From: an uncultured Fretibacterium sp.
GTDB lineage: Bacteria; Synergistota; Synergistia; Synergistales; Aminobacteriaceae
Length of the DNA: 64,000 bases
Direction: 5' to 3'
Assembly: GCA_946186205.1 (NCBI GenBank)
Contig: CAMHMH010000010.1
Coordinates: 2,777-66,776, forward strand
Positions 10,682-40,560 of the stretch are shown here, piece after piece. Position 1 is the first letter of the stretch, and each line of letters opens with the position of its first letter. The translations under genes were made by a program, and so were the position numbers. The notes beneath the pieces were generated by a model, which was not told the DNA's origin, searched no databases, and saw only the letters and a program-made list of their open reading frames with translations.

Positions 10682-10810
10682 ACGATAATGATAAAGCCTC
10701 CTCTTTGCGGGGAGGTTTTATTTTGTGAATTTCTTGCGCGCTATGATAAACTAAATCACATCGCAAATAATTTTTTAGCAGTTTACAGCAAGAAAGAGGA
10801 ATTTTTTGTC

Positions 10811-13888: not shown

Positions 13889-13914
13889 AAATTTTTGCAG
13901 GAAAGGTGATAAAC

Positions 13915-20601: not shown

Positions 20602-20608
20602 GATGAGT

Positions 20609-27320: not shown

Positions 27321-27429
27321 TGATGAGGCAATCGGAAAAGTTGCGGTGATCGGCGCGCTTGCGTTGTACTTGGACTTCATCAACCTGTTCTTGTACCTGA
27401 TAAAACTTTTCGGGAAGAGAAGAGACTAG
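26713..27429 (+). CDS. BAX inhibitor-1/YccA family membrane protein (intact copy)
   Basis: 238 aa and 7-TM-like. N-terminus MAQYDSYTPYAAG preceded by AAAAAGGGAG. The C-terminal GALALYLDFINLFLYLIKLFG is typical of the family. Confidence 0.85.
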   Translation: MAQYDSYTPYAAGVGSIESVNTLFRKVYQYMALGLILTSLTAWITVASPAMIRFFYGSRAPLIIAAIAELGLVFYLSATIAKHDASTSLLLFGLYSVLNGITISCVLLVYTQESVYTAFLSTAGMFSAMSLYAMYTKRDITAWGSFLHMGLWGLIIAMVINIFLGSSTAETVISVMGIIIFMGLTAYDTAKIKSIAESSGMNDDEAIGKVAVIGALALYLDFINLFLYLIKLFGKRRD

Positions 27430-27773: not shown

Positions 27774-29039
27774 ATGGCCAACTTCAGACTCACACGCCAG
27801 CAAATGAACAGGCTGAAATTTCGTTTTGAGCAGTTCCGTAATGCAAGGCTTCAAGTTCACAGGCTCATGAAGGAATACATTGACGACTACAAAAACTTTC
27901 AGGGAGACTCCTCAGACCGCCAGGAATATTTAGAGGGAAAATACATCATGCTTGCTCCGTCTCACAGCCACATAAAATTTGACGGTGAAGAGATTGTCCT
28001 ATGGTCGCCGGATGATATAGCACTCTTGACCGGGCGGAGGCAGTCAACAATATCGCGAGTGCTTCAACGAATGCAACGGAGTCCGGGATGGCGTTCAAGG
28101 CTCGCGGCTCTCAGCGTCGACTCAATGTCCGGGAACAACAACAAGGTTTACATTTATCGGAGCGGAATATTTGATCTCATATTCGACAAGTACGAGGAAG
28201 AATATTTAGCACGTTACACACGGCCGCGCAGGGGAAATTCTGTCGACTCAAAAGAGGTCTTGCGCTTCTGGAATTATCTCAAGGACTCAAATTGTCATGA
28301 TGAGTATGACTCTTACAGCCTGAGAGTCTCAGAGGCTGAACAAAATGATGCTGATGATTTTCCGCCAATGTCATTGAAAGATATTGCCATGTTAATTTTC
28401 AGGAAGATACTAACGCCAAAGACAGGAATAATTTTCCCGGTGATATTCGCCGTAACTCTCGCGGTTGTCAGAAGATGGCCGGCAATGATTCCGATCCTCG
28501 CAATAATTTCTGTGATTGTGATTCCCGTTTGCGCTGTGATGATTCGGACTCATCGGTTCAGAATCGGAGTCGCGTCAGACATCGGGGCGGTCGCGTTACT
28601 GTGCGGCGTATTCTTGGGCGTTGCTTCATTCTCGGACGGAGTAATCTACACTCCCGGCGGAAATGCTGTAGAGCTTTACGAACACGAACGGAGCATTGAG
28701 CTTTACGCTGACATGTGGAGGAATGGCCGCGTGTTTTTCCGTGTGATCTCTGACAAGTATGAAGGCATCAAGGAAGTATTCTTCAGAGTGAATGAGGGCG
28801 AATACAAATCGACGGGCTTCAATGAGTATCATTATCCTGTATTGATGATTGAGCCTGAGACACAGCACGGTGATATTAGCATTGAGGTGAAGTATATTGA
28901 CGCTCGCAACAAAGAGTACGGGCCGTATAAATTTGTGTTTGATGTTGACGGTGAGAGGGAGAAACTAAAACGCAAAGCGGAAAATGACAGGCAGGAGTTC
29001 AAGCGCGAAAAGAAAGAAAAGAGCAAAAACAAAAAGTAA
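27774..29039 (+). CDS. Hypothetical membrane protein with an N-terminal HTH-like segment and a K/E-rich tail
   Basis: 421 aa. DIALLTGRRQSTISRVLQRM looks like an HTH. About three TM helices in the middle (residues ~215-300). C-terminal domain and KEKKEKSKNKK tail. Confidence 0.5.
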   Translation: MANFRLTRQQMNRLKFRFEQFRNARLQVHRLMKEYIDDYKNFQGDSSDRQEYLEGKYIMLAPSHSHIKFDGEEIVLWSPDDIALLTGRRQSTISRVLQRMQRSPGWRSRLAALSVDSMSGNNNKVYIYRSGIFDLIFDKYEEEYLARYTRPRRGNSVDSKEVLRFWNYLKDSNCHDEYDSYSLRVSEAEQNDADDFPPMSLKDIAMLIFRKILTPKTGIIFPVIFAVTLAVVRRWPAMIPILAIISVIVIPVCAVMIRTHRFRIGVASDIGAVALLCGVFLGVASFSDGVIYTPGGNAVELYEHERSIELYADMWRNGRVFFRVISDKYEGIKEVFFRVNEGEYKSTGFNEYHYPVLMIEPETQHGDISIEVKYIDARNKEYGPYKFVFDVDGEREKLKRKAENDRQEFKREKKEKSKNKK

Positions 29040-29263: not shown

Positions 29264-29388
29264 CGCGTTCACCTCAATTCTACAGGGCGGCTCCCCGTCG
29301 ACCGATGAGCCCTGTACCTCATCCGGGACTCCCTCGTGAAAATCATTATACCAGATAAAATTAGCACCTTATGTGATATGATACGTGC

Positions 29389-29462
29389 CATCCAGAAGAT
29401 AGCAGTGGCGATTTTATCTATCCTGTCAGAGAGATTGCGCCGCTGTTTTTATTGCCCTTCAT
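29389..29462 (-). pseudogene. Frameshifted paralog of the 44-aa small ORF
   Basis: The ATG (29460-29462, minus strand) gives MKGNKNSGAISLTG and then a stop. Adding one A to the A5 run would restore KKQRRNLSDRIDKIATAIFWMA, which is homologous to copy 1. Confidence 0.4.
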
Positions 29463-29509
29463 TATCTGCTACAATCCCACTAATCAATCACACACAGGAG
29501 GGATTTATT

Positions 29510-31510
29510 ATGCGAAGGAATTTATCACTCGCACTAATTCTTGTTCTCTTTTTTTCTTTCACACCTTCTCACGCACTCTCTATACGCGACAACTACGACA
29601 TAATCATAGCCGGAGCAGGCACAGGAGGAATCAGCGCGGCAATTCAGGCGGCCTCAATGGGCTCTGAAGTCCTCGTTGTAGAGTCGTCATCAATGCTCGG
29701 AGGCCAGGCAATCGCAGCAGGAGTCGCGAACATGGACGACCTTTCAGCGCAGAGGAGCGGAATATACGCCGACTTCATTTCGCGTGTCGAGGAGTATTAC
29801 TCAGCGCGGGGAAAATCCATCGGAACAAGCTACTGGGATCCGAGAAATTTAGCCTTTGAGCCTCACATAGGACTGCGAATCCTTCAGGAAATGGCACGAG
29901 GCGAGGAAGCACCCGACATTCTTTACGGGTCAGAAATTATTGCCGTCGGAAAAGAAGAAGTTATTTCCGTCAATGGCGAGAACGTCAGCGAGGCTCCACG
30001 AATCAACAGCGTAATCATTAAGACTCCTGAAGGAATGAAGAATATCACCTGCAAGATTCTCATTGACGCTACAGAATACGGCGACATTCTCCCGCTGGCA
30101 GGCGCGGACTACAGAGCAGGAAACTCAATCACGCCCAACATTAACCCAAACGCTATGATTCAGGACATAACATGGACAGCCGTTATCAGGAAATACCCCG
30201 GCGGAGTCCCTGAGCACCTCAAGCCTAAATCACCCCTTCCCGGCTACGACATGGCCCGCATAAATTACGCGAATTATGTCGCTAAGGACGGCTTCACCTT
30301 CAAGGGACAATACCCCGTAAAGCTCCCGGTAGATTTCATCACTCACAACGTTTACAGAGGACTCCCCGACTCTTTCACGCCCGGAAATTTTGACGCAACA
30401 CCAGAGAATTGGCCGTCAATCTCTAAATGCTCGGTCAACTGGGCTAATGATTTCCCCGGACAAAACAAGCTCGGAGACAAATACGGACTCCCAGTCTCAT
30501 ACTTGGAGGACAAAAACTTGCGCGCAAGGCTCGAACGCGACGCATTAATCAAAACTCTTCACTTCATTTACTACATGCAGAATGAGTTAGGCGAGTCATG
30601 GTCAGTTGATGAGAATGAATACGGCGAGCTTCAAGAGGCTGCAAAAGATCTCCCGGACGAATGGAAGATCATCGCACGTCATTTGCCCCCTGTCCCTTAC
30701 GTCAGAGAATCACGAAGGGGAGTCAGTAATCACACGCTAATCTCTCAGGAACTCTTCAGCAACTCATTAAGCTACAAAGACGGGCGCGGAAATAATGAGT
30801 TTCAGGACGCAATCGCAATCGGCTGCTATCATCTCGACTTGCATCACACGGACATCGAGTCGGATATGGAGTCAGACTTAGGCGAGAAGCAAGCGTACAT
30901 TGAGCAGCACAGGCCGCACGGAAATTTTCAGGTGCCAATGAACATTTTGATTCCCAGAAATGTTGACGGGCTAATACTCGCTGAGAAAAATTTATCGATG
31001 TCGAGACTCGTTGCAGGAGCTTTGAGACTTCAGCCAATCACAATGATGACAGGTCAAGCCGCCGGGGCTCTCGCTGCAATCTCTGTATCACGCAACATTC
31101 AGCCGAGATTCGTCAAGGCCGTTCACGTTCAGGAAGCACTGATTGATTCGGGGGCTAATCTCTCACTCTGCACTTACTCAGATGTTCCCGCTAATCACAA
31201 ATACTACAAGGCCGTACAGATCGCTAACCTCTATAAACTTCTTGAGCCGGAAAAATATCCCGATACAGTGTCTTATGATGTCGGCTACGATATAACATTC
31301 GCGCTCGACAATCCCGAACTCGTGAAGGAAATAGCAGAAGGCAAAGACAAAGGACTCTTCAAGCCCGATGACATTCTCAGCAACAAGGACAGGGAGAGTC
31401 TCATTGCCCGCGTGAAAGAATTAACAGGCCGTGAGATTTCACTGAAGGAAGGAAATATTACGAGGGGTGAAGCTGTGAGTCTCGCTGTTGAAGAATTGAA
31501 GAAAAATTAG
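29510..31510 (+). CDS. Secreted FAD-dependent oxidoreductase (FAD_oxidored-like)
   Basis: ATG at 29510 follows CAGGAGGG. Signal peptide MRRNLSLALILVLFFSF. DIIIAGAGTGGISAAIQAA dinucleotide-binding motif. The ORF portion upstream of 29510 is antisense to the small-ORF repeat. Confidence 0.75.
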   Translation: MRRNLSLALILVLFFSFTPSHALSIRDNYDIIIAGAGTGGISAAIQAASMGSEVLVVESSSMLGGQAIAAGVANMDDLSAQRSGIYADFISRVEEYYSARGKSIGTSYWDPRNLAFEPHIGLRILQEMARGEEAPDILYGSEIIAVGKEEVISVNGENVSEAPRINSVIIKTPEGMKNITCKILIDATEYGDILPLAGADYRAGNSITPNINPNAMIQDITWTAVIRKYPGGVPEHLKPKSPLPGYDMARINYANYVAKDGFTFKGQYPVKLPVDFITHNVYRGLPDSFTPGNFDATPENWPSISKCSVNWANDFPGQNKLGDKYGLPVSYLEDKNLRARLERDALIKTLHFIYYMQNELGESWSVDENEYGELQEAAKDLPDEWKIIARHLPPVPYVRESRRGVSNHTLISQELFSNSLSYKDGRGNNEFQDAIAIGCYHLDLHHTDIESDMESDLGEKQAYIEQHRPHGNFQVPMNILIPRNVDGLILAEKNLSMSRLVAGALRLQPITMMTGQAAGALAAISVSRNIQPRFVKAVHVQEALIDSGANLSLCTYSDVPANHKYYKAVQIANLYKLLEPEKYPDTVSYDVGYDITFALDNPELVKEIAEGKDKGLFKPDDILSNKDRESLIARVKELTGREISLKEGNITRGEAVSLAVEELKKN

Positions 31511-31855: not shown

Positions 31856-33505
31856 ATGAACAGCGAATATTCACGAGAAGTCGAAAAATTATCAGCGGCG
31901 TTTGATGATGCTGTCTCAAACTCAGAGGCATTCACTCAGCAGGAAAAATCATCGTTCAACAATGAAATCTCAAACCGTGTGCTTCCTCTTCTCAATTCAC
32001 CCAAGCCGAAAATTTTGGTCTACGGAATCTACAACGGCGGCAAGTCTACCCTCGTAAACTCTATATGCGGGCGTGAAGTTGCATCAGTTGCTGACCGTCC
32101 CGAAACTCACAGGATTACAGCATATGACGCGGGAAAATATGTTCTTGTCGATTCTCCCGGCATTGACGCGCCTGAAGAAGACGAGAGAGTCGCGGACGAA
32201 CAAATTAAAGCGTGCCACATCATTTTGTTTGTTGTCAGCTCAAAGGGAGGATTTGAGAGCGAAACGAATTACCGCAAAATGCTCGACCTTATGAACAAGG
32301 GCATACCGTTTATCATCGTCCTTAATGACAGAGGCGTGCCAACAAATGAGGAAGCACAGCACCGCCGCGAGCTTCAGGATATACGCAGCAAAATCATCAA
32401 GAACCTCACGAAGTACAGCGGGCGTAATGACATCGAAAGAAAGTATGAAGTGATTGTAGTAAATGCTCTCAGGGCATGGCGCGGAGTCTCGGAAAACAAA
32501 GCGGGCTTCATATCGAACAGCCGAATCACAGACTTAACATCAAGGATTGATCAGCTACTCGAAAGCAAAGAAGTCCTGAAAATGTATCTCGCTCCCCTCT
32601 CAGCACTTGAGGAAGAAATCAACAGGGCAGAAGAATTACTCACAGCACGTAAGGTAACGGAAGATTTTGCGCGCAGAAGGTCAGCACTTCAGCAGAGAGT
32701 CACGGAGCTTCATTCGAGCATGGAGAACGCAATACGATACACGGCCTCAAAGTATACGGAAGAAATTTATCACAGCTTTCTCGGCGAGGGCGGGCGGAAT
32801 ATTGCGGACATTAACGCAGAAATAGCGAGCGAGGTTGATGGCAAGTATAAAGTTTCTGTTTCACCTGTTCTGACGTACATACGTAAATCATTTGCTGACA
32901 TAAACGTTACGGCGGACGAATCCGGGAATGTCGTTCTTGCGACTCCTGAAGTCAGCATGAAGCCTCGTGCGGTTTCTGGTGATGACAGCGGGAACTTGCC
33001 GGCATATTCGGACAAGAGCAGCCCGGCGGATTATGACACAGGGAGCATCACAAAAGCAGCGGCAGCAGGAGCGGCAACAGGGGCGGCAATCGGAAGCATT
33101 GTACCCGTAATAGGAACAGCAATAGGCACGGCAGGAGGAGCATTAATCGCGGGAGTCGGTGAATTTCTCCGTCAGATGTTCTCACGTGATGACAGTGAAA
33201 AGGAATTTGAGAGAAGATTGCGTGAAGTTGAAGCCTACAACAGACAGATAGAACAGAAATTCGAGGAGGACAAGCGCAGGAGGCAGGACGCACGAACGGC
33301 AGCAAACGCGCAAGTCAACAGCGCAGTTAAACAGCTCAGGTCAGCATATTCAGATCTCATAGACAAGACATTCAGCAAGGTTATACAGCTCATCGACTCA
33401 GCCGCCGCTAAAAATTCCGCAAGCAACGCCGCTATAGACGGGACAATGAATATACTTCTCGCGCTTAACGCAAATATTCACAATCTCCGTCAGAAAATCG
33501 CATAA
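31856..33505 (+). CDS. Dynamin-like P-loop GTPase 1 with a C-terminal glycine-zipper membrane segment and coiled coil
   Basis: G1 GIYNGGKST and G3 DSPG. Long helical C-terminus. AAAAGAATGAAIGSIVPVIGTAIGTAGGALIAGVG hydrophobic Gly-zipper. R/E/Q-rich coiled-coil tail. Confidence 0.6.
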   Translation: MNSEYSREVEKLSAAFDDAVSNSEAFTQQEKSSFNNEISNRVLPLLNSPKPKILVYGIYNGGKSTLVNSICGREVASVADRPETHRITAYDAGKYVLVDSPGIDAPEEDERVADEQIKACHIILFVVSSKGGFESETNYRKMLDLMNKGIPFIIVLNDRGVPTNEEAQHRRELQDIRSKIIKNLTKYSGRNDIERKYEVIVVNALRAWRGVSENKAGFISNSRITDLTSRIDQLLESKEVLKMYLAPLSALEEEINRAEELLTARKVTEDFARRRSALQQRVTELHSSMENAIRYTASKYTEEIYHSFLGEGGRNIADINAEIASEVDGKYKVSVSPVLTYIRKSFADINVTADESGNVVLATPEVSMKPRAVSGDDSGNLPAYSDKSSPADYDTGSITKAAAAGAATGAAIGSIVPVIGTAIGTAGGALIAGVGEFLRQMFSRDDSEKEFERRLREVEAYNRQIEQKFEEDKRRRQDARTAANAQVNSAVKQLRSAYSDLIDKTFSKVIQLIDSAAAKNSASNAAIDGTMNILLALNANIHNLRQKIA

Positions 33506-33519
33506 AGTGAGGTCATAAC

Positions 33520-34470
33520 ATGCTGTCAAAAAAAGATGCAGAAACTTTAGAGAGGCTCGCAGGTTCAGGCTTCCTTCAGAAATGGGAGGGACTCCGCAGA
33601 AAGTTTGACTCCGGCGAAAAAATCACAGTCGCTAATACAGGTCAGTACAGTTCCGGCAAAAGCACGCTCTTTAATGCTCTCTTGGGACGGGTTGACAATG
33701 AACGCTTCCAGACCGGCGCAATTCCCACGACGAAATCAGGAGACCGCGAGAGATTCTCGGACAATATTGATCTCATGGACACGCCCGGAATTGACGCGAA
33801 TCTTGCTGACGATGCAGAGGCCTTCAGGATGTTAATGGAGTCGGACATCATCATAATGACTCACAACGTCAAAACAGGAATGCTTAACCGTGCCGAATAT
33901 GACTGGCTGAAAAAAATTGCTGACGGGATCGGCTCTGAAAGCATTTCCGACAGGCTGATATTTGTCTCAACGTGGATTGACGAAATACAAGAGGAGTCAG
34001 ACCAGCAGAAATTGAGAGACGAAATACAGCGTCAAATCTCGGAGATAGTATCAGGAAAACAAATAGCATATTACGAGGTGTCAGCAAAAAGATATTACAC
34101 GGCCGTGAAGAAAGGCAATGCGAATCTCGAACGTGCCAGCAGAATCCCGGAATTAAGAGAAGGCCTCACAGGACGCGCGAAACTTTACGGGGCATCGCTT
34201 CAGGCTTTGAGGAAAAAAGAATTGTCCATGCTGTGCAGTGAGTCATGGGACGCTCTCCGATCTCTGAGAAATGAAAAGGACGGCGAGATTTCACGACGAA
34301 AGAAACGAATCCGTGAAAGGCATGACTCAGAGTTTGAGACTTGGCGGGGAATCAAGAACAGGTTCGAGTCAATGAGGCAGAATGTATTCAGCAAGCTGCA
34401 CACTATACGGCAGCATTTCGACAGCTCATCAGATTACCAGTCTTACGAGCGAAGAGTCTATGACATTTAG
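33520..34470 (+). CDS. Dynamin-like P-loop GTPase 2 (short form)
   Basis: G1 GQYSSGKST, G3 DTPG and a G4-like STWID. Paralog of residues 1 to ~290 of the 34892 ORF. Confidence 0.6.
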   Translation: MLSKKDAETLERLAGSGFLQKWEGLRRKFDSGEKITVANTGQYSSGKSTLFNALLGRVDNERFQTGAIPTTKSGDRERFSDNIDLMDTPGIDANLADDAEAFRMLMESDIIIMTHNVKTGMLNRAEYDWLKKIADGIGSESISDRLIFVSTWIDEIQEESDQQKLRDEIQRQISEIVSGKQIAYYEVSAKRYYTAVKKGNANLERASRIPELREGLTGRAKLYGASLQALRKKELSMLCSESWDALRSLRNEKDGEISRRKKRIRERHDSEFETWRGIKNRFESMRQNVFSKLHTIRQHFDSSSDYQSYERRVYDI

Positions 34471-34481
34471 GAGGGGTGAAC

Positions 34482-34892
34482 ATGGCGGTAATATTCTGGG
34501 CAGCAGCAGGAGCCGTAGTAGCGGCGGCCACGCACGGAGATCACAGCGCGCACAGCGATTACGACAATTACGGGAATTACGGGGACTACAGCGACGCAGC
34601 CGAAAGAAGGCGCAAGAGACGTGAGGGAATGAAGCCGGAAATAGAGTCCTCAGCAAATGAATTGTCAACCTACAAGAGAAGTATTGTAAACCCGCAGTTA
34701 AGCAGCCAGTCATTAAAGGCGGAAAAAGCAATGACTGTTGATGTTGATGCGATGGATTTAGACGCGAGGTCGAAGATCAACAGCAAGATAAATATTGAGG
34801 AGTTATCGCAGACGGGGGACTTGAGAAAAGAGCTTGATGAGATTGACGGGCTTCTTGCGAAAATTGCACACATAGGGAGCGAGAACAAGTAA
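34482..34892 (+). CDS. Small membrane protein with seven tandem [H/Y]-x-x triplets; C-terminal domain homologous to the tail of GTPase 3
   Basis: AGGAGG lies 7 nt before the ATG. N-terminal TM MAVIFWAAAGAVVAAAT, then HGD-HSA-HSD-YDN-YGN-YGD-YSD, then RRRKRRE. The C-terminus (YKRSIVNPQL...AMDLDARSK...LRKELDEIDGLLAKIAHIGSENK) aligns with the GTPase 3 tail. Confidence 0.7.
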   Translation: MAVIFWAAAGAVVAAATHGDHSAHSDYDNYGNYGDYSDAAERRRKRREGMKPEIESSANELSTYKRSIVNPQLSSQSLKAEKAMTVDVDAMDLDARSKINSKINIEELSQTGDLRKELDEIDGLLAKIAHIGSENK

Positions 34893-36076
34893 TGAACTTC
34901 TCAGCGGATGAGCTTTCACTTCTGGGAAAATATGCCGGATCTGAAACCGCAAGACGATGGGAGACTCTGCAAAAGAAGCTGGCTTCCGACGACAAAATCA
35001 CGATCGCTAACACCGGGCTTTACAATTCGGGAAAAAGTATGCTGTTCAATGCGATTCTTGACTGTACAGAAAATGAGCGTTTCAGCGTCGGGGACATGCC
35101 CACAACGAGAGAAGCAGACCGCGCAAGATTCACGGACAACATTGACCTAATGGACATGCCCGGAATTGGTACAGATCCTGCCGATAATGCAGAAGTCCCA
35201 AGTATGTTAATGGAGTCTGACATCATAATAATGACTCACAGGATCAACGCAGGAATGCTTAACCAAGCCGAATGTGAATGGCTGAAGAAGATTGCTGAAA
35301 ATATCGGTGCAGAAGCGATAAATGACAGGCTCATATTTGTATGCACAGCTATTGACCGAATAAGCAGCGAGGGTGAAAGGAACAAACTGCGGAATGAATT
35401 AATGCGTCAGGTTTCGGGTGCGTCATTCGGAAGGATGATTCAATTCTGGGAAGTCTCCTCAACTCGTTATTACAAGTCAAAGGCTGAGGGCAATTCCGAG
35501 CTTGAAGCAATGAGCGGTATACCTGCGCTCCGTGAATATCTTGTGTCTGAAGCTGAAAGACTTTCTCACATGGCCGGGGCAATAAGGAAAGCGGAAATTC
35601 TGAGGCTGTGCGCTGAAATATTATCTGCGCTGAGTGCAGCAAGAGAGTCTGTGATACGTGACTTTTCTGAACTCTCAGGGAAAATCCGCGAAAAATACAG
35701 AATGAAGCTAGAAGAATGGCAGGGAGTCCTGAAAACTTTCAGCAGAAAAAAGAGAGGAGATACTACAGGACTGAATCCTACAGGACTGTGGGGGAACATC
35801 GGCTCATTTTTCGGAAAAGAATACAGTACAAAGAAAGACACACTTTCAGACTATAAAGCAAAAATCGTAAACCCGTTCTTAGCCTCTGAGACTCTCATCA
35901 ATGCCAGCGCAATGGATGTTTCAGAGCAGGAAATGGACTCTGACGCACGTGGAAAACTCCGCTATGAGGAAGGCTACGAGGAAGCATCATCGACTCTTGA
36001 GCTTAGGCGCGAGCTTGAAATCATAGACGGACTGACAGCAAAATTTTCATACATAGAAAGCGAGAACAAACAATGA
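34892..36076 (+). CDS. Dynamin-like P-loop GTPase 3 (equivalent to a fusion of GTPase 2 and the small-protein C-domain)
   Basis: G1 GLYNSGKSM, G3 DMPG and a G4-like CTAID. Carries PTGLWGNIGSFFGKEY. The tail is YKAKIVNPFL...EMDSDARGK...LRRELEIIDGLTAKFSYIESENK. TAATG overlap with the preceding gene. Confidence 0.6.
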   Translation: MNFSADELSLLGKYAGSETARRWETLQKKLASDDKITIANTGLYNSGKSMLFNAILDCTENERFSVGDMPTTREADRARFTDNIDLMDMPGIGTDPADNAEVPSMLMESDIIIMTHRINAGMLNQAECEWLKKIAENIGAEAINDRLIFVCTAIDRISSEGERNKLRNELMRQVSGASFGRMIQFWEVSSTRYYKSKAEGNSELEAMSGIPALREYLVSEAERLSHMAGAIRKAEILRLCAEILSALSAARESVIRDFSELSGKIREKYRMKLEEWQGVLKTFSRKKRGDTTGLNPTGLWGNIGSFFGKEYSTKKDTLSDYKAKIVNPFLASETLINASAMDVSEQEMDSDARGKLRYEEGYEEASSTLELRRELEIIDGLTAKFSYIESENKQ

Positions 36077-37833
36077 CAGCAGTTGAAGCAATAAATGAAT
36101 TTGTAGAAACAATGTTAGACTGCCGCGAAACGTTAGACAAAATAGAAGGCTCTGACGAAAAATTATCGCAGTGCATAAAGACATTCGCCGAAAGAATTTC
36201 AGACATCACGAAACCGAACGCGCAATCAGATAATCCCGCAGTCAAAGACATTCAGGAGAGCCAGACAGAAACATTGCGCGAAATGCTCAAGGACGTAGGC
36301 GCGAAAATGGACGCAACCCGCGAAAATATGAAGTTCATAGTCAGCAACAAAGAGTCATTCAACATCGCAGTGTTCGGAAAAGTGAAGGCCGGAAAAAGTT
36401 ACACGGGCAATTTCATCATGGGCAACGTGATTCGCGGCATGGGTATCAAGACTTCTTACGACAATATTACGCCCCCGAAAGTTACGGTGTATGACAGAGG
36501 CAAAATCACTTCAGCCGAAAAGCTCGCGGAGATTGAGAGCAACGATGACGGATTCATTGTTGACCCTAACGAGGCCACAAGCACAATACAGCTTTTCACT
36601 CTCGGCGGCATGAAATGGATCGACACTCCCGGAATAGGAAGCGTGACTCAGGCGAATGAGCTTCTCGCAAAAGATTTTGTTGACAGCGCAGACCTTGTTG
36701 TCTACATGAGCAACTCTGACGCGGCAGGAACTCATCAGGACTTCAAAGAGCTTGAGACTCTTCACAAGAAAGGAAGAAGATTTCTGCTCCTCCTCACTCA
36801 GTCAGATACGCTTGAGGAAGACTGCGATGACGACGGAAATATTATCGCGACTCTCGTCCCTAAGTCCGACAAAGACCGCAAAAGCATGGAAGATTACATC
36901 TGCGAAACTCTGAAGGAATACGGAATCAATGAGAAGAAGCTTCAGCGAGGCCGGGAGATACTCACAATTTCAACAAAGCTCGCACTTGAAGCACTAAAGA
37001 ATAATGATGAGGCCATGTTCGACGCAAGCAACCTCAAAAAATTTCTCGCAATACTCATCGACATTACACGGAACGAAAGCGCAGACTTGAAACTTGCAAC
37101 CCCCGCGAAAAGAATCAACTCCGCGATTGACGCTATCATGGAAATTTTGACAGGAGCAGAGCATACACTCAGCAAACATTCTCAGAGCCTCAGAGAAACA
37201 GAAGAGAGACTCACCGACAACAACGAAACACTTTTAGCGCAGATGAAAAATGACTCGTACATGAAGATTGAGTCATTCATAACGAGGAAGGCTGAAGAGG
37301 TTGAAAAGGGCGGCGCGTCAGTGAGTGCTTCAGACATTGAGCGCGAAATAAATTCTGTGGTTTACAATTCCGTAATGAATGCTTGCGCCAAAGAATTTTC
37401 CGGGAGCGAGAGAATTTTGTCGTCATACTCTGAGAGCCTCAAGATTCAGGCGGGCGGCGACTTGTCCATGAGAACAGATACGATCACTCACACTCAAAGG
37501 AAAGTCGAGCGTGAAAGAAGAGATCCTACAGGACTGTGGGAGAATATCGGCTCATTCTTCGGAAAAGAATATTACAGCACAAAAACAAGGAACGTAACAA
37601 TCACAACAAAAATAGATCTCGGAGTGAATACAGCTCAGGTAATGGCCTCGATAAGAAGCGGGCTTGATGAAGTATTCATGACTCAGATTCCCGAAATGAT
37701 GAAGAAACTTGCGGATGAGATTATTTCTCCCGTCCGTGATGTTCAGGAAAAAGCAAAGGCTCAAATTTCCGCGACGATAAAAGAGCTTGAAGGCGTGAGA
37801 ATAAAAATTGCTGACACTCATACTGAAGGCTAA
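36073..37833 (+). CDS. Dynamin-like P-loop GTPase 4 (long form)
   Basis: G1 GKVKAGKS, G3 DTPG and a G4-like LTQSD. Long helical stalk-like C-terminus. Carries PTGLWENIGSFFGKEY. ATGA overlap with the preceding gene. Confidence 0.65.
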   Translation: MTAVEAINEFVETMLDCRETLDKIEGSDEKLSQCIKTFAERISDITKPNAQSDNPAVKDIQESQTETLREMLKDVGAKMDATRENMKFIVSNKESFNIAVFGKVKAGKSYTGNFIMGNVIRGMGIKTSYDNITPPKVTVYDRGKITSAEKLAEIESNDDGFIVDPNEATSTIQLFTLGGMKWIDTPGIGSVTQANELLAKDFVDSADLVVYMSNSDAAGTHQDFKELETLHKKGRRFLLLLTQSDTLEEDCDDDGNIIATLVPKSDKDRKSMEDYICETLKEYGINEKKLQRGREILTISTKLALEALKNNDEAMFDASNLKKFLAILIDITRNESADLKLATPAKRINSAIDAIMEILTGAEHTLSKHSQSLRETEERLTDNNETLLAQMKNDSYMKIESFITRKAEEVEKGGASVSASDIEREINSVVYNSVMNACAKEFSGSERILSSYSESLKIQAGGDLSMRTDTITHTQRKVERERRDPTGLWENIGSFFGKEYYSTKTRNVTITTKIDLGVNTAQVMASIRSGLDEVFMTQIPEMMKKLADEIISPVRDVQEKAKAQISATIKELEGVRIKIADTHTEG

Positions 37834-38905
37834 TAACTCGTGCAACCTTCGCTGCTCATATTGCTGTGTCGGCGACAAGTCATCATCATCAATGCTCAAC
37901 GCTGAGGAAATGTCCCGCACTTTGTCGTGGTTTGCGTCAGAAGCGAGAATGCGCGGTGAACATTCACCCTCAATAATCTTTCACGGAGGAGAACCGCTTC
38001 TGATTCCCGTCTCACAGTACCGTGAATGCCTCGACACTTTGCTGAAAGATAACGCAGATTTAGACTTCACGTTTCAGATTCAGACGAACGGGACAATCAT
38101 TAATGATGAGATTATCGCGTTCCTAAAAGATTATGACGTTCAGCCGGGGATTTCTGTTGACGGTCCGCAGGGTGTTCACGATTCGCAGAGGATTAAAGCT
38201 GACGGGAGTCCCTCGTATTCACTTGTCATGAAAAACATTCGGCGGCTCAAGTCTGAGGGGCTTAACGCATGCGGTCTTATGGTTCTGACTCGGAGATCAC
38301 TAAATGCCGGGCTTGAATGGCTCAATGACTTTGCGGAAATGAGAGTCCCAATGAAAATCAATCCGCTTTATTCTGCCGGTGAAGCACTGAAACATGACGA
38401 GCTTTCTTTGAGGCCGGGCGATTATGCTGACTATTTGATTCGAGTCTACGAATATATTTTTGACAATGAGATAAACATCTCGCTGACTCCGATTGAGTAC
38501 ATACTTCAGGGAATAATCAACGACATTACGCCGAGGGGCTGCGTTTTCTCCGGGACGTGTCATGACTCTTTCTTGTGCATTGATTACGAGGGAAATATTT
38601 ACCCCTGCGGAAGATTTGCGGACAGCAAGTCGAACATCGTCGGCAACATTCACACGGGCATAACAAGAGGAGGCCGTCAGATTCTCGCGGGTCTCAAAGC
38701 GTCGAGGACATCAAATATTCGCAGCGAGTGCAAAAATTGCAGGCACGTCAGATTCTGTAACGGCGGCTGCTCTGTCATGAACGGCGCAATGTGCAAAGAC
38801 TTCATGAGATTCACGGACTATCTTTTCAGCAATGGCATCACGAAATACAAGGACTATTTGCTTCACAGGCGGGCGGAAATATGCAGTATGATTTGCTCCT
38901 CCTGA
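37808..38905 (+). CDS. Radical SAM enzyme with a C-terminal SPASM domain (peptide/protein-modifying maturase type)
   Basis: CNLRCSYC (CX3CX2C) near the N-terminus. C-terminal YPCG...CKNCRHVRFCNGGC (CX2CX5CX3C) SPASM signature. No ATG is available; the likely start is TTG at 37808, overlapping the previous gene by 26 nt. Confidence 0.8.
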   Translation: MLTLILKANNSCNLRCSYCCVGDKSSSSMLNAEEMSRTLSWFASEARMRGEHSPSIIFHGGEPLLIPVSQYRECLDTLLKDNADLDFTFQIQTNGTIINDEIIAFLKDYDVQPGISVDGPQGVHDSQRIKADGSPSYSLVMKNIRRLKSEGLNACGLMVLTRRSLNAGLEWLNDFAEMRVPMKINPLYSAGEALKHDELSLRPGDYADYLIRVYEYIFDNEINISLTPIEYILQGIINDITPRGCVFSGTCHDSFLCIDYEGNIYPCGRFADSKSNIVGNIHTGITRGGRQILAGLKASRTSNIRSECKNCRHVRFCNGGCSVMNGAMCKDFMRFTDYLFSNGITKYKDYLLHRRAEICSMICSS

Positions 38906-40560
38906 ACGTTACGAGATACAGCGCAAACGGAGGATGGTTTCATGAATATTTAGGCGGACACATAATCGCGTCATATATATCACAGTTTCAGTTCTCCGCA
39001 AAAGTTTTCTCATGCCACGTTTCAGAATGCACAAAGATAATCACGAACGAAATCACGAAAAGGGGAGTCGAAATTCTCGGCTTCTATGTCGCGGCTGACA
39101 ATGTGATTCTTTCCGGCCATGTCATGAAGTGGGTGAAGGAAAATTTTCCGTGCGTTAAGATTCTCGCGGGAGGCCCTGAATGTTACGCGCTTGGTGAAAA
39201 GTTCATTGCTGAAAGTTTATGTGATTATGTTGTTTACGGCGAGGGGGAAAAGTCCGTGCTTGATATTCTTCGTTATGAGCTTGACGGAATCGGAAGCCGT
39301 GAAAACATCAGAGGCATAAAATACATATCGCCTTCAGGAATTTTCACCGTAAATCCTCCGTCTGAACTGATACATGACCTCGACTCGATTCCATTTCCCG
39401 ACAGAAGTAACAGCTTGAGTCTTGATTTCAGGACAGGTGAATCGATCGGCATTCTTACGGGGAGGGGCTGCCCATTTCACTGCGGGTTCTGCTTTGAGGG
39501 TTCAGCGTCAAAAACTGTGAGGCTTCGTAGCATTGGGAATGTCATCGCGGAGATTGAGTCAGTCAGAAGATACAATCCCTCCTTGAAGTGCGTCAACATT
39601 TACGATGATACTTTCACGCTTAGTCCTGAGAGAGTCAGAAAGTTCTGCGACTACATGAGAACCGCCGGGCTTTTGTGGACGTGTGAAGCTCATGTATCAG
39701 TCCTCTATCACAACCCCGAAATGATTCACATCATGGCCGGGTCCGGGTTAATCGCCGTGCAGATAGGAATCGAGAGCGGGAACAGAAGAGTCCTTGAAGC
39801 CTACAAGAAGAACATCACGCCGGAAATGATTATTGATGTCGTGAGAATGTGCAAGTCAGCAGGAGTTTACCGCGTTGAAGGCAATTACATTTTGGGCGGA
39901 GCTTTCGAGTCAGAAGAGACATTACGGGACAGCATCAGTCACGCAAAATCACTCATCACTAACGGGCGGGGCATAACGGAAATCAACACTGTATTTTTTG
40001 CGCCTTACTTCGGAACGCCTGTAACAAAAAATCCTCAAGCATACGGAATGAGAGTCGACTCTTTCAGGAACGATCACACAGCCGTAACGATGAGGGAAGC
40101 TGTTACTGAGTCAGAAAGTTTTACGGTGAATGAAATCGTGAGGGCCAAAGAAATTTTTGAGCGCGAAATCACAGATCACTATATCGCCGAGGCACTGAAC
40201 ACTGCGAGGGACGAACTAATTCACGGGACATGCAGGAATATTCCCGTTCATGTGAGCAATACGCACTGGATTCGGGCGTGGAGAAATTATCCGCACATCT
40301 CCGACTTCATGGAACACCTTTCGCATGACGAGCAGGAATTTTCGCCGATGAAATTTCCCGTGAGGACTCTCAGCGCGTATACTGTTGAGGGAGATAATGT
40401 TTCAGGTTACGGCGTGAGTCTTTCGGGAGAAGAGTCGAGAGCGATTCTTTTTGCTGACGGAAGGAGGACAGTAAAAAAAATTGCTGAGGAAAACGGAATC
40501 TCCCCAGCAGTTTTTGAGTCTCTGAATAATAAGTGCCTCGTATATTTCTCGGATTTCTAG
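38881..40560 (+). CDS. B12-binding-domain (class B) radical SAM enzyme
   Basis: N-terminal Rossmann-like B12-binding-type region followed by GRGCPFHCGFC (CX3CX2C). ATG at 38881 overlaps the SPASM gene by 25 nt. Confidence 0.75.
   Translation: MQYDLLLLNVTRYSANGGWFHEYLGGHIIASYISQFQFSAKVFSCHVSECTKIITNEITKRGVEILGFYVAADNVILSGHVMKWVKENFPCVKILAGGPECYALGEKFIAESLCDYVVYGEGEKSVLDILRYELDGIGSRENIRGIKYISPSGIFTVNPPSELIHDLDSIPFPDRSNSLSLDFRTGESIGILTGRGCPFHCGFCFEGSASKTVRLRSIGNVIAEIESVRRYNPSLKCVNIYDDTFTLSPERVRKFCDYMRTAGLLWTCEAHVSVLYHNPEMIHIMAGSGLIAVQIGIESGNRRVLEAYKKNITPEMIIDVVRMCKSAGVYRVEGNYILGGAFESEETLRDSISHAKSLITNGRGITEINTVFFAPYFGTPVTKNPQAYGMRVDSFRNDHTAVTMREAVTESESFTVNEIVRAKEIFEREITDHYIAEALNTARDELIHGTCRNIPVHVSNTHWIRAWRNYPHISDFMEHLSHDEQEFSPMKFPVRTLSAYTVEGDNVSGYGVSLSGEESRAILFADGRRTVKKIAEENGISPAVFESLNNKCLVYFSDF

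What the first reader, a model, noticed from the sequence alone, without database searches (positions are those of the whole stretch)
34533..34595. Seven consecutive [His/Tyr]-x-x triplets (HGD HSA HSD YDN YGN YGD YSD) directly after a TM helix look like a radical-SAM cyclophane-type substrate motif
The DNA shows a clean 9-nt periodicity: CAC GGA GAT | CAC AGC GCG | CAC AGC GAT | TAC GAC AAT | TAC GGG AAT | TAC GGG GAC | TAC AGC GAC. Repeated aromatic-x-x triplets are the recognised substrate pattern of three-residue cyclophane-forming rSAM/SPASM enzymes. These make the triceptides, crosslinking the ring of residue 1 to C-beta of residue 3, and include Tyr- and His-containing motifs. Tripeptide His-Xaa-Ser repeats are the presumed substrate of the two-rSAM Hxs system. 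Both points are recalled from the literature and not verified here. A SPASM rSAM lies four genes downstream in the same operon. Two things are unusual. The repeat is embedded in a 136-aa membrane protein, between its N-terminal TM helix and an RRRKRRE cluster, rather than at the end of a short leader-core peptide. The protein's C-terminal domain is also homologous to a GTPase tail.
Basis: partly seen in the sequence, partly recalled or inferred. Interest (0 to 1): 0.85.

Follow-up and report, generated by a model that had tools for sequence, protein, structure and literature searches.

The report
Radical-SAM-linked aromatic triplet repeat protein
A small membrane-anchored protein carries a conserved run of Tyr/His-x-Asp/Asn triplets, completes a split dynamin-like GTPase, and is always encoded with two radical-SAM enzymes, so it is probably an enzyme-modified part of a membrane machine, perhaps anti-phage, and not an antibiotic precursor.

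Summary
ORF 34482-34892 encodes a hydrophobic N-terminal anchor, then HGD HSA HSD YDN YGN YGD YSD, then AAERRRKRRE, then a helical hairpin. Chance would give about 2e-4 such runs in the window.

The repeat defines the family. In 163 relatives (979 triplets), position 1 is always aromatic (Y 69%, H 29%, W/F 1.3%). Position 3 is D/N in 84% and never Gly. Copy number runs from 3 to 9.

In 20 of 20 loci with enough flank, across Synergistota, Clostridia and Riflebacteria, the gene sits in one fixed cassette. This cassette holds LeoA/LeoBC-like dynamin GTPases, the repeat protein, a SPASM rSAM and a B12-type rSAM. An archaeal sister clade of the SPASM enzyme, with no GTPases nearby, has an unrelated small ORF with the same aromatic-x-acid triplets. 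This supports the repeat being the SPASM substrate.

The enzyme belongs to no curated family. DynA and anSME are its best, sub-threshold matches, so cyclophane chemistry is inferred, not shown.

The protein is not a leader-core RiPP precursor. Its C-terminal hairpin completes the helical bundle of a split dynamin/mitofusin-like GTPase. Twelve of 20 loci add Bunzi-like (BnzB, PDC-M09A) genes, and at least six have a WYL regulator, which suggests an anti-phage role. The closest precedent is the HXS system (2026). I rate it a new variant of a known kind, with high interest.

The parts
31856..33505 (+). First cassette gene: a 549-aa LeoA-like dynamin-family GTPase with a Gly/Ala-rich membrane segment (residues 401-434).
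   Evidence: Pfam Dynamin_N and MMR_HSR1, plus a sub-threshold Gly-zipper match at 402-444 (22.6 bits, cut-off 25). PADLOC LeoA E = 1e-29 over the full length. P-loop GIYNGGKS and DSPG motifs are intact, and residues 401-434 are hydrophobic. Present in all related loci with upstream flank.
33520..34470 (+). 316-aa GTPase: a GTPase domain plus one long helix. It is the N-terminal piece of a split dynamin/mitofusin-like protein.
   Evidence: Pfam MMR_HSR1 and Dynamin_N. PADLOC LeoA E = 6e-23. It aligns to residues 1-~300 of the fused paralogue GTP394 and stops where that protein's disordered loop begins. Always directly upstream of the repeat protein.
34482..34892 (+). 136-aa repeat protein: anchor, triplet repeat, polybasic cluster and helical hairpin.
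   Evidence: Translation. 33 homologues in the word-index search and 225 clusters at 50% identity in the representative library. No Pfam or NCBIfam family. AF2 model: residues 1-34 are low-confidence; helices 35-72 and 88-134 have pLDDT about 70-90.
34482..34532 (+). N-terminal hydrophobic anchor (residues 1-17, MAVIFWAAAGAVVAAAT).
   Evidence: Mean Kyte-Doolittle hydropathy 2.01 over 17 residues. MAVIF...GG...A/V-rich segment is conserved in relatives. Repeat-less paralogues replace it with an amphipathic MGWFTD/MGLFGD N-terminus.
34533..34595 (+). Seven in-register [His/Tyr]-x-[Asp/Asn/Ala] triplets (residues 18-38). This is the proposed radical-SAM substrate.
   Evidence: Unique in the window and not reached in shuffles. 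In 979 triplets from 163 relatives: position 1 is Y/H/W/F in 100%; position 3 is D 60.5%, N 23% and Gly 0%; position 2 is S 64%, D 13%, G 9.6%. Copy number is 3-9.
34596..34625 (+). AAER plus polybasic cluster (AAERRRKRRE, residues 39-48), at the start of the first long helix.
   Evidence: Y36, S37, D38, A40 and E41 are invariant, and R42 and R46 are >=90% conserved, in alignment A1. By the positive-inside rule (inference), this places the repeat and the C-terminal domain in the cytoplasm.
34626..34889 (+). C-terminal helical hairpin. It is homologous to the C-terminal helices of GTP394 and is predicted to complete the helical bundle of the 316-aa GTPase.
   Evidence: BLASTP against GTP394 residues 276-393, E = 1e-19. 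AF2 helices. In the fused paralogue these helices follow the long helix 210-288 after a disordered loop, and the whole model matches IniA, BDLP, mitofusin and LeoA.
34892..36076 (+). 394-aa GTPase. It is a lineage-specific paralogue in which a 316-type GTPase is fused to a copy of the repeat protein's C-terminal domain, without the anchor or the repeat.
   Evidence: AF2 pLDDT 89.5, pTM 0.79, with a disordered loop at 292-308 where the anchor and repeat would sit. Foldseek matches IniA (E = 7e-9), BDLP, MFN1/2, Fzo1 and LeoA. Only 3 clusters of the fused form are known. Absent from the other loci.
36073..37833 (+). 586-aa LeoBC-like dynamin-family GTPase.
   Evidence: PADLOC LeoBC E = 6e-21. 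Pfam Dynamin_N at 26.0 bits, just under the cut-off of 27. P-loop GKVKAGKS and DTPG motifs. Conserved at 37-97% identity in every locus with coverage here except the divergent L016 and L018 (28-35%).
37808..38905 (+). 365-aa radical SAM/SPASM enzyme with no N-terminal RRE domain. It is the proposed modifier of the triplet repeat.
   Evidence: Pfam Radical_SAM. CX3CX2C at C12/C16/C19, plus eight SPASM cysteines (C245, C251, C267, C308, C311, C317, C321, C329) invariant in 13 orthologues. Best NCBIfam matches are DynA (187 bits, cut-off 450) and anSME (161 bits, cut-off 349). Best PDB matches are anSME 4k37, CteB 5wgg and the triceptide synthase ChlB 9gm3. Homologues down to about 200 bits stay in the cassette.
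38881..40560 (+). 559-aa class-B (B12-binding-type) radical SAM enzyme. It is the proposed second modifier; its chemistry is unknown.
   Evidence: Pfam Radical_SAM, plus B12-binding at 28 bits (below the cut-off of 32). CPFHCGFC at residue 197. Best NCBIfam matches are HpnJ at 128 bits and ApyD at 88 bits, both far below cut-off. PDB 9ccb E = 1.6e-12. Present in 20 of 20 loci, truncated in L026.

Best explanation
The 136-aa ORF is the membrane-anchored C-terminal piece of a split dynamin/mitofusin-like GTPase. The upstream 316-aa GTPase supplies the G domain and one long helix. The small protein supplies the anchor and the closing helices.

The linker next to the membrane is a run of 3-9 in-register [Tyr/His/Trp]-x-[Asp/Asn] triplets. 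It is the substrate of the two radical-SAM enzymes at the 3' end of the same operon.

Most likely mechanism (inferred): the RRE-less SPASM enzyme abstracts a hydrogen from C-beta of residue 3 of each triplet and joins it to the aromatic ring of residue 1. This is the three-residue cyclophane of triceptides and dynobactin, and it costs -2 Da per triplet. The result would be a contiguous stack of small rings, that is, a rigid, protease-resistant rod between the anchor and the helical bundle. The B12-type enzyme adds a second change, probably C-methylation.

The modified protein stays in the cell as a subunit of a Leo/Eleos-like GTPase machine that acts on the membrane, probably in anti-phage defence. 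In this it resembles the rSAM-matured HxS-repeat effector HxsA.

Shown: the repeat, its conservation, the fixed gene linkage, the split-GTPase architecture and the defence-gene neighbours. Inferred: that the repeat is the substrate, the type of bond, and the biological role.
For: 1. The repeat is under selection as aromatic-x-(residue with a C-beta). In 979 triplets from 163 proteins, position 1 is Y/H/W/F only. Position 3 is D/N/E/A/R and never Gly, while position 2 is Gly 94 times. Trp can replace Tyr or His.

2. The linkage is strict. In 20 of 20 loci with enough flank, from Synergistota, Clostridia and Riflebacteria, the order is LeoA-like GTPase - ~300-aa GTPase - repeat protein - ~586-aa GTPase - SPASM - B12-type rSAM (rearranged in L016 and L018). 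Genes are tightly packed or overlapping, and there is no other small ORF.

3. SPASM homologues down to 29% identity (P0108, P0110) are still in such cassettes, next to repeat proteins.

4. An independent context agrees. The sister SPASM clade (P0119, P0128; archaeal-type neighbourhoods with no GTPases and no B12-type rSAM) has an ORF overlapping its 3' end that reads HED WDE HGD YSE, or YRD HTD HSE YGD HTE..YGD YYD HTD. These ORFs are not homologous to the repeat protein. In 489 kb searched in six frames, runs of >=4 such triplets occur nowhere else, apart from antisense frames over the repeat genes themselves.

5. The enzyme has the RRE-less, full-SPASM architecture shared by anSME, ChlB and DynA. 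DynA is the top or near-top model, and clearly the top model for the sister clade at 282-334 bits. DynA-type enzymes make Trp-Asn C-C and His-Tyr N-C links (PMC10288494).

6. Tyr and His triceptide motifs are established (PMC11499958, PMC12912966).

7. The small protein is a GTPase subunit. Its tail is homologous to GTP394. The AF2 model of GTP394 (pLDDT 89.5) matches IniA, BDLP, mitofusin and LeoA, with a disordered loop exactly where the anchor and repeat would be.

8. Defence context. PADLOC gives LeoA/LeoBC hits. In 12 of 20 loci, PDC-M09A (E = 8e-90) and BnzB (E = 7.5e-119) homologues follow directly downstream. WYL regulators are found in L001, L007, L009, L011, L012 and L016 (the L001 member is confirmed as WYL/WCX) and in L025 and L026. 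L017 has a patatin gene. Leo-type dynamins and Bunzi are validated anti-phage systems (bioRxiv 10.1101/2022.05.11.491447).

9. HXS is a precedent for an rSAM-matured tripeptide-repeat protein effector (PMC13128918).
Against: - There is no chemical evidence of any modification.
- The SPASM enzyme is below the cut-off of every curated cyclophane-synthase model (75-139 bits against 310-450). It scores about as well on the anaerobic sulfatase maturase as on DynA.
- Characterised triceptides are leader-core peptides released by proteolysis (PMC12912966). Here there is no leader, protease or exporter.
- Contiguous triplets with no spacers, each cross-linked, may be sterically demanding. This is my own judgement and is untested.
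- The window's cassette lies among housekeeping genes (flagellin, HemB, Mfd), not in a defence island, and lacks the Bunzi-like pair.
- The role of the B12-type enzyme is unassigned, and its best match is a hopanoid-pathway enzyme.
Confidence: 0.55

Rival explanations
1. The repeat is the radical-SAM substrate, but the chemistry is not a C-C cyclophane. Options include anSME-like oxidation of the position-2 Ser (or of Asp C-beta) to an aldehyde or keto group, ether or N-C cross-links as in darobactin and dynobactin, a '+C/-4H' change as in HxsA, or mainly methylation by the B12-type enzyme.
For: - anSME is the best PDB match (E = 4e-28) and ties with DynA among NCBIfam models in 7 orthologues.
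- Ser is the commonest position-2 residue (64%) and is invariant in the last triplet, YSD-AAER.
- S-D-A-A-E-R is one residue off the sulfatase C/S-x-P/A-x-R motif (sequence; the motif is from my own knowledge).
- HxsA carries a +8 Da change, not -2 Da (PMC13128918).
Against: - Position 2 is the least conserved position. It is G, S, S, D, G, G, S in the window, and Gly in 9.6% of all triplets. Positions 1 and 3 carry the constraint, and position 3 is never Gly.
- The residue after the Aux-I Cys is the catalytic Asp277 in anSME (my own knowledge of the 4k37 work) but an invariant Gly here (C267-G268).
- The sister clade scores clearly higher on DynA than on anSME.
Confidence: 0.22
2. The repeat is not an enzyme substrate. 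It is an interfacial or metal-binding linker, with Tyr/His at the membrane interface and Asp/His/Tyr as cation ligands. The two radical-SAM enzymes act on something else, such as a membrane lipid, a nucleotide (viperin-like) or another protein of the cassette.
For: - Tyr, His and Asp are all classical metal ligands, and aromatic residues favour membrane interfaces (general knowledge).
- The B12-type enzyme's best model is the hopanoid enzyme HpnJ.
- PADLOC gives weak pVip (viperin) hits for the SPASM enzyme's rSAM core.
- AF2 sees the segment as disordered.
Against: - Asn (23%) and Ala at position 3, and Trp at position 1, are poor metal ligands, yet the strict 3-residue register is kept.
- The sister SPASM clade carries the same kind of triplets in an unrelated, non-membrane small ORF with no GTPases. 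A linker role does not explain this.
- The SPASM enzyme's relatives are all peptide or protein modifiers.
- The pVip hits cover only the N-terminal rSAM core.
Confidence: 0.13
3. It is a classical RiPP. The repeat is a core peptide that is cross-linked, cut out and exported as a small triceptide-like natural product, with the dynamin-like GTPases serving vesicle-mediated release.
For: - aromatic1-X2-X3 repeats next to a SPASM enzyme are the hallmark of triceptide clusters (PMC11499958).
- LeoABC were linked to vesicle release in ETEC (PMC4159319).
- The archaeal sister loci do look like leader-core precursors.
Against: - The cassette has no protease, transporter or immunity gene.
- The core would lie between an N-terminal anchor and a conserved 90-residue domain that is homologous to, and in one paralogue fused to, a GTPase.
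- The gene always sits between GTPase genes.
Confidence: 0.07

Closest known systems
Triceptides and their three-residue cyclophane-forming rSAM/SPASM enzymes (XyeB, GrrM/OscB, FxsB, YhhB, HaaB, HtkB, ChlB, MicB)
   Same: Repeated aromatic1-X2-X3 motifs, including Tyr and His, are encoded next to an RRE-less SPASM enzyme of about 365-375 aa. Residue 3 always has a C-beta hydrogen. ChlB (PDB 9gm3) is a detectable homologue, E = 3e-18.
   Different: The enzyme fails every curated model cut-off. The motifs are contiguous, 3-9 copies, with Asp/Asn at position 3. There is no leader peptide, protease or exporter. The substrate is a conserved 136-aa membrane protein that is a GTPase subunit. A B12-type rSAM is always present.
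HXS anti-phage system (HxsA-D; PMC13128918)
   Same: Two radical-SAM enzymes sit beside a protein, not a short peptide, that carries tandem tripeptide repeats beginning with His. The rSAM-matured protein is itself the functional effector of a defence system.
   Different: The enzymes are different: HxsB scores 86-93 bits against a cut-off of 370, and the second enzyme here is a class-B rSAM. There is no HxsD, peptidoglycan-binding domain or periplasmic export. The repeat is acidic (aromatic-x-Asp/Asn), not basic. The cassette includes three or more dynamin-like GTPases.
Dynobactin and darobactin maturases (DynA, DarE, DarW)
   Same: DynA is the best-scoring or co-best curated model for the SPASM enzyme, and clearly the best for its sister clade. 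DynA-type chemistry links an aromatic ring to Asn C-beta and His to Tyr C-beta (PMC10288494).
   Different: Scores are 145-225 bits for cassette enzymes against a cut-off of 450. The substrates, organisms (anaerobic Synergistota, Clostridia and Riflebacteria) and genomic context are unrelated.
LeoABC / Eleos ('Dynamins') bacterial dynamin-like defence system
   Same: There are tandem LeoA-like and LeoBC-like GTPases with intact P-loops. One GTPase is split into pieces with a hydrophobic membrane anchor, as in LeoC/LeoB. The fold matches LeoA, BDLP, IniA and mitofusin.
   Different: Canonical Leo/Eleos operons have no radical-SAM genes and no triplet-repeat protein. Here there are three to four GTPases, and the split is at a different place: after the first long helix, with the anchor at the N-terminus of the C-terminal piece.
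Anaerobic sulfatase-maturating enzyme (anSME)
   Same: It is the closest solved structure (4k37, E = 4e-28), with the same length, no RRE and the same SPASM cysteine layout. It modifies a functional protein, not a natural product.
   Different: It scores 161 bits against a cut-off of 349. There is no sulfatase gene in the cassette and no C/S-x-P/A-x-R motif. The residue equivalent to the catalytic Asp is an invariant Gly.

Membership tests
Triceptide (3-CyFE) systems | The substrate carries aromatic1-X2-X3 motifs (aromatic = Trp, Phe, Tyr or His). | tested here: met
   Seven motifs in the window. In 979 triplets from 163 relatives, position 1 is Y/H/W/F only. The definition is from PMC11499958.
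Triceptide (3-CyFE) systems | An rSAM/SPASM maturase is encoded with the substrate. | tested here: met
   The SPASM gene is in the same operon in 20 of 20 loci. The rSAM and SPASM cysteine motifs are complete.
Triceptide (3-CyFE) systems | The maturase belongs to a recognised cyclophane-synthase family (XyeB, GrrM/OscB, FxsB, YhhB, AmcB models). | tested here: not met
   Scores for the window enzyme and six cassette orthologues: YhhB 111-149, GrrM 98-136, FxsB 94-111, AmcB 93-112, XyeB 76-96 bits, against cut-offs of 310-450. A sequence-similarity network against the published set of 5369 enzymes could not be run.
Triceptide (3-CyFE) systems | A bond from the aromatic ring to the C-beta of residue 3, costing -2 Da per motif. 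| not testable with these tools
   This needs MS/MS and NMR of the co-expressed protein. The only indirect hint is that Gly is never at position 3 (0 of 979) but is common at position 2.
Triceptide (3-CyFE) systems | Leader-core precursor with proteolytic release of the product. | tested here: not met
   The repeat lies between an N-terminal anchor and a conserved GTPase-tail domain. The cassette has no protease or exporter. Characterised triceptides are all cleaved (PMC12912966).
HXS defence system | HxsB and HxsC radical-SAM pair. | tested here: not met
   HxsB model: 86-93 bits against a cut-off of 370. The second enzyme is a class-B rSAM with no Hxs model among its 21 listed NCBIfam matches.
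HXS defence system | HxsA effector (His-Xaa-Ser repeats plus a peptidoglycan-binding domain) and HxsD. | tested here: not met
   The small protein has no NCBIfam or Pfam match. Its repeat register is aromatic-x-Asp/Asn. No HxsD-like gene is in the cassette.
Leo / Eleos dynamin-like defence system | Adjacent LeoA-like and LeoBC-like dynamin-family GTPases with functional P-loops. | tested here: met
   PADLOC LeoA E = 1e-29 and LeoBC E = 6e-21. G1 and DxxG motifs are intact in all four GTPases. The fold matches LeoA, BDLP, IniA and MFN.
Leo / Eleos dynamin-like defence system | Protection against phage that depends on GTPase activity. | not testable with these tools
   Only context is available: PDC-M09A and BnzB homologues in 12 of 20 loci, WYL regulators and a patatin gene. 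The window locus itself is among housekeeping genes.
Anaerobic sulfatase maturase (anSME) | Passes the family model, and the substrate has a C/S-x-P/A-x-R motif. | tested here: not met
   TIGR03942 scores 156-216 bits in the seven cassette enzymes tested, against a cut-off of 349. There is no sulfatase in the cassette. SDAAER is off by one residue. The position equivalent to Asp277 is an invariant Gly (the role of Asp277 is from my own knowledge).
Dynobactin maturase DynA | Passes the NF041298 equivalog model. | tested here: not met
   145-225 bits for cassette enzymes and 282-334 bits for the sister clade, against a cut-off of 450. It is the closest curated model, but membership is not met.

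The most novel reading that the evidence does not exclude
Triceptide-type (or related) radical-SAM cross-linking is used here to build a structural element of a protein machine, not a secreted natural product. The element is a stack of 3-9 contiguous three-residue rings. They form a rigid rod next to the membrane in the anchor subunit of a split dynamin/mitofusin-like GTPase. The rod would act as the lever or sensor of a new anti-phage, membrane-remodelling system of anaerobes that combines Eleos-like GTPases, two rSAM maturases and often a Bunzi-like pair.
Probability: 0.35. Interest if true: 0.9.

Novelty: new variant of a known kind. Interest (0 to 1): 0.78.

Why it matters
If the inference holds, three things follow.

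1. Cyclophane-type radical-SAM chemistry is so far known only from small secreted peptides. This would extend it to a permanent modification of a membrane-protein subunit.

2. It would be the first bacterial dynamin/mitofusin-like machine that needs radical-SAM maturation. That offers a handle on how these poorly understood GTPases engage membranes.

3. After HXS (2026), it would be a second and mechanistically different case of an rSAM-matured tripeptide-repeat protein in what is probably anti-phage defence. That would suggest a wider, unrecognised class.

The family is compact: about 225 clusters at 50% identity, all from anaerobes. The motif is sharply defined and the gene set is fixed, so the co-expression and mass-spectrometry experiment is directly feasible.

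Tried and rejected
- Exact-sequence look-up of the window protein and of its 100%-identical cluster representative found no record.
- Pfam, NCBIfam and PADLOC give nothing for the small protein.
- Literature searches for radical SAM with dynamin/LeoA, SPASM with dynamin, cyclophane with GTPase, and Bunzi/Eleos with radical SAM found no description of this cassette. The library misses most subscription journals. The 2022 JACS triceptide landscape paper is not held; only its title was seen, in a reference list.
- I hoped that repeat-less homologues (P0213, P0226, P0206, P0233, P0218) would show whether loss of the repeat goes with loss of the rSAM genes. The one whose context could be read (P0213) is an extra paralogue inside an expanded Synergistaceae cassette, between GTP394-like and GTP586-like genes, so the test is uninformative.
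- The viral-contig scan found no relative.
- tRNA and Rfam scans of the window found nothing.
- The promoter and terminator scan was not above shuffled expectation.
- An A1 profile search against the archaeal small ORFs shows no homology beyond the repeat. This is useful as a negative result.
- One further SPASM relative (P0112) has no obvious repeat ORF nearby. P0115 has only a 57-aa ORF ending in YDD YYD.
- The idea that the cassette lies in a defence island in this window is rejected, because the neighbours are housekeeping genes.
- A sequence-similarity network placement and a multimer structure prediction could not be run with these tools.
Full report
**1. Observation**

ORF 34482-34892 (+) has a GGAGG Shine-Dalgarno 7 nt upstream of its ATG. 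It translates to MAVIFWAAAGAVVAAAT-HGD HSA HSD YDN YGN YGD YSD-AAERRRKRRE, followed by about 90 more residues. The seven triplets occupy exactly 34533-34595.

This is the only run of 7 in-phase [H/Y]xx triplets in any frame of the window. The expected number from composition is 2e-4, and none of 100 shuffles reaches 7.

The first 17 residues have a mean hydropathy of 2.0, which fits a short membrane anchor.

At the DNA level, TRF sees only 2.9 copies of a 9-nt unit, at 34558-34583. The periodicity is therefore kept by selection on the protein, not by recent slippage.

The SPASM gene is the third gene downstream, not the fourth. The B12-type rSAM is the fourth.

**2. The repeat defines a protein family**

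A homologue search found 33 relatives at 26-100% identity. A profile search of 1.84 billion representative proteins found 225 clusters. No Pfam or NCBIfam model matches the protein.

All full-length members have four parts:
- a hydrophobic N-terminus;
- an in-register stack of triplets;
- a near-invariant YSD-AAER followed by a polybasic stretch;
- a helical C-terminal domain.

Triplet composition, from 979 triplets in 163 proteins:

| Position | Residues |
|---|---|
| 1 | Y 69%, H 29%, W 1.1%, F 0.2%; nothing else |
| 2 | S 64%, D 13%, G 9.6% |
| 3 | D 60.5%, N 23%, then E, A, R; Gly 0 of 979 |

Copy number varies from 3 to 9. The constraint is therefore 'aromatic ring, any small residue, then a residue that has a C-beta'. 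Cross-linking residue 1 to the C-beta of residue 3 would require exactly this. Trp substitutions and frequent Asn fit metal binding or phosphorylation poorly.

**3. Genomic context**

The window operon is tightly packed, with overlapping stops and starts:

| Coordinates | Product |
|---|---|
| 31856-33505 | LeoA-like GTPase with a Gly/Ala-rich membrane segment |
| 33520-34470 | 316-aa GTPase |
| 34482-34892 | Repeat protein |
| 34892-36076 | 394-aa GTPase |
| 36073-37833 | LeoBC-like GTPase |
| 37808-38905 | rSAM/SPASM enzyme |
| 38881-40560 | Class-B, B12-binding-type rSAM |

. All four GTPases have intact P-loop and DxxG motifs.

The same order, without the 394-aa gene, recurs in loci from:
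- Synergistaceae MAGs;
- Clostridium novyi and other Clostridium;
- Filifactor villosus;
- Otoolea muris;
- Ruminococcus;
- other Clostridia;
- a Riflebacteria MAG.

The order is rearranged in two divergent loci, L016 and L018. In 20 of 20 loci with enough flank, both rSAM genes are present. No other small ORF fits inside the cassette.

The window's neighbours are housekeeping genes: flagellin, HemB, an RND pump and Mfd.

**4. The SPASM enzyme**

It has CX3CX2C at C12/C16/C19 and a full set of SPASM cysteines, invariant in 13 orthologues. It has no N-terminal RRE domain.

It passes no curated family cut-off. The best models are the dynobactin maturase DynA (187 bits, cut-off 450) and the anaerobic sulfatase maturase (161 bits, cut-off 349). 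These two remain the top pair in six further orthologues. The nearest solved structures are anSME, CteB and the triceptide synthase ChlB.

The residue after the Aux-I cysteine is, to my knowledge, the catalytic Asp in anSME. Here it is an invariant Gly.

Homologues form a continuous series down to about 200 bits. The two borderline ones checked (P0108, P0110) are still in GTPase, repeat-protein and B12-type rSAM cassettes. Their small proteins read YKN YSD YSD YSD YSN YSN YSD YAER and YSD HSS YSD YNER.

**5. An independent test of 'repeat = substrate'**

The next clade of SPASM homologues (P0119, P0128, P0114, P0112) has these properties:
- about 42% identity to one another;
- 27-32% identity to the two divergent cassette enzymes compared (P0108, P0110), and 28-33% to the window enzyme;
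- archaeal-type neighbourhoods with no GTPases and no B12-type rSAM.

In two of these loci, the ORF overlapping the 3' end of the SPASM gene carries the same kind of triplets:
- ...HED WDE HGD YSE... (98 aa);
- ...YRD HTD HSE YGD HTE..YGD YYD HTD... (102 aa).

A third has YSS HRD. All three share a leader-like IxNPxxRxA N-terminus. These ORFs are not homologous to the bacterial repeat protein.

Runs of >=4 in-phase [YHWF]x[DEN] triplets occur only in the cassette proteins (with antisense shadows over the same genes) and in these archaeal ORFs. This sister clade scores best on DynA, at 282-334 bits, ahead of anSME.

So the link between the enzyme and the aromatic-x-acid triplets survives a complete change of context.

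**6. What the small protein is**

Its C-terminal domain is homologous to the tail of the 394-aa GTPase: E = 1e-19, 35% identity over 131 residues.

AF2 predicts a helical hairpin for the small protein (helices 35-72 and 88-134, pLDDT about 70-90), with a low-confidence N-terminus.

The 394-aa protein models with high confidence (pLDDT 89.5, pTM 0.79). Its layout is a G domain, then a long helix (210-288), then a disordered loop (292-308), then closing helices. It matches IniA, BDLP, mini-mitofusins, Fzo1, the Campylobacter dynamin pair and LeoA.

The 316-aa GTPase ends where that loop begins. So the 316-aa GTPase plus the small protein is a split dynamin/mitofusin-like protein. The anchor and the triplet repeat sit at the tip position, where dynamin-like proteins carry their membrane-binding element.

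The polybasic cluster suggests that the repeat and the hairpin are cytoplasmic and so within reach of the rSAM enzymes. This is an inference from the positive-inside rule.

The fused, repeat-less 394-aa form is rare, with only 3 clusters. Unfused repeat-less paralogues also exist; they have an amphipathic N-terminus and an E/R-rich coil in place of the anchor and repeat. The one whose context could be read (P0213) is an extra unit within an expanded Synergistaceae cassette.

**7. Likely biological role**

The GTPases match the PADLOC LeoA and LeoBC models.

In 12 of 20 loci, the B12-type rSAM gene is followed within a few dozen bases by two genes. One is a full-length PDC-M09A homologue (E = 8e-90). 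The other is a BnzB (Bunzi) homologue (E = 7.5e-119).

Other defence-type neighbours:
- WYL-type regulators flank L001, L007, L009, L011, L012 and L016 (the L001 member is confirmed as WYL/WCX), and also L025 and L026.
- L017 has a patatin phospholipase directly downstream.

Leo-type dynamins and Bunzi are experimentally validated anti-phage systems. Bunzi has been proposed to monitor the membrane (bioRxiv 10.1101/2022.05.11.491447). LeoABC also include a split GTPase with a hydrophobic anchor (PMC4159319).

In the HXS system, two rSAM enzymes mature HxsA, a protein of about 214 aa with five HxS repeats, into an anti-phage effector (PMC13128918). This shows that rSAM-matured tripeptide-repeat proteins can be defence effectors.

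A defence role for this cassette is plausible but rests on context only. The window copy lacks the Bunzi-like pair.

**8. Best explanation and rivals**

Best explanation (0.55): the repeat is the substrate of the SPASM enzyme, which most likely forms three-residue ring-to-C-beta cross-links. The B12-type enzyme adds a second change. The modified protein stays in place as the anchor subunit of a Leo-like GTPase machine.

Rivals:
- The same substrate but different chemistry, such as anSME-like oxidation, ether or N-C links, or an HxsA-like change (0.22).
- The repeat is not a substrate, and the rSAM enzymes act on a lipid, a nucleotide or another protein (0.13).
- A classical excised and exported RiPP (0.07).

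Nothing here shows a chemical modification. That needs mass spectrometry.

**9. Known or new**

None of the cassette's core proteins passes a curated NCBIfam cut-off. The repeat protein has no PADLOC match, and the two rSAM enzymes have only weak, partial ones. No paper in the searchable library links radical SAM enzymes with bacterial dynamins.

Each component is of a known kind: triceptide-like motifs, SPASM maturases, Leo-type GTPases, and rSAM-matured repeat effectors. The combination appears undescribed, and so does the placement of the motif inside a GTPase subunit. I file it as a new variant of a known kind, with high interest.

Noticed in passing
window 34892-36076: A 394-aa GTPase is a natural fusion of a 316-type GTPase with a copy of the repeat protein's C-terminal domain. 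It lacks the anchor and the repeat. Its linker (..GLWGNIGSFFG..) aligns with the repeat region and may be a degenerate remnant. Only 3 clusters of this fused form exist in the 5.8-billion-protein collection.
   Followed up: yes
L021 160-624 (P0213); also P0206, P0226, P0233, P0218: Repeat-less paralogues of the small protein have an amphipathic N-terminus (MGWFTD.. or MGLFGD..) and an E/R-rich coil in place of the anchor and repeat. In L021 the paralogue sits between GTP394-like and GTP586-like genes of a close relative of the window organism. The [GTPase + small protein] unit therefore duplicates within Synergistaceae cassettes.
   Followed up: partly
L001 9408-11671; also L004, L007-L012, L015, L025, L026, L028: Two genes directly follow the B12-type rSAM gene in 12 of 20 loci. 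They match PADLOC PDC-M09A (E = 8e-90) and the Bunzi protein BnzB (E = 7.5e-119). WYL-type regulators flank at least six loci. The window copy lacks all of these.
   Followed up: partly
L019 9103-9399; L031 5118-5426; L030 4938-5141: Small ORFs overlap the 3' end of archaeal-type sister SPASM genes. They carry aromatic-x-Asp/Glu triplets after a shared IxNPxxRxA leader-like N-terminus. A conserved ~130-aa coiled-coil protein lies downstream and a ~500-aa protein lies divergently upstream. None has a family match. This looks like an uncharacterised RiPP-like system in its own right.
   Followed up: partly
L026 13286-14458: In this metagenomic locus the B12-type rSAM gene aligns only to residues 1-389 of 559 before the PDC-M09A-like gene begins. 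This could be a deletion, a pseudogene or an assembly artefact.
   Followed up: no
L017 10875-11810; L018 3920-4711 and 10916-14358; L004 3070-3708: Variant cassettes exist. L017 has a patatin (CBASS-lipase-like) gene directly after the B12-type rSAM. LRAT-family genes lie near two cassettes (L004, L018). In L018 the two large GTPases follow the rSAM genes, and a TPR protein and a further dynamin gene lie downstream.
   Followed up: no
window 34590-34610 (residues 37-42, S-D-A-A-E-R): The near-invariant sequence after the last triplet is one residue off the sulfatase formylglycine motif C/S-x-P/A-x-R. The closest solved relative of the SPASM enzyme is the sulfatase maturase. This is probably coincidence, but it bears on the chemistry rival.
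   Followed up: partly
window 7016-10627: A 1203-aa ORF has no Pfam match at E <= 1e-5. It lies directly upstream of an AcrB-family RND transporter (10688-13888) and a HlyD-type adaptor (13906-15027).
   Followed up: no
window 18073-20628 (-), 25958-26488 and 26674-27429 (+), 27774-29039 and 29336-31510 (+): Other genes near the cassette: an 851-aa ankyrin-repeat protein; two tandem Bax1-I (BI-1/YccA) family genes; a 421-aa ORF with no family match; and a 724-aa FAD_oxidored protein just upstream of the cassette. The last two have no tblastn match in the other loci and so are not conserved with the cassette.
   Followed up: partly
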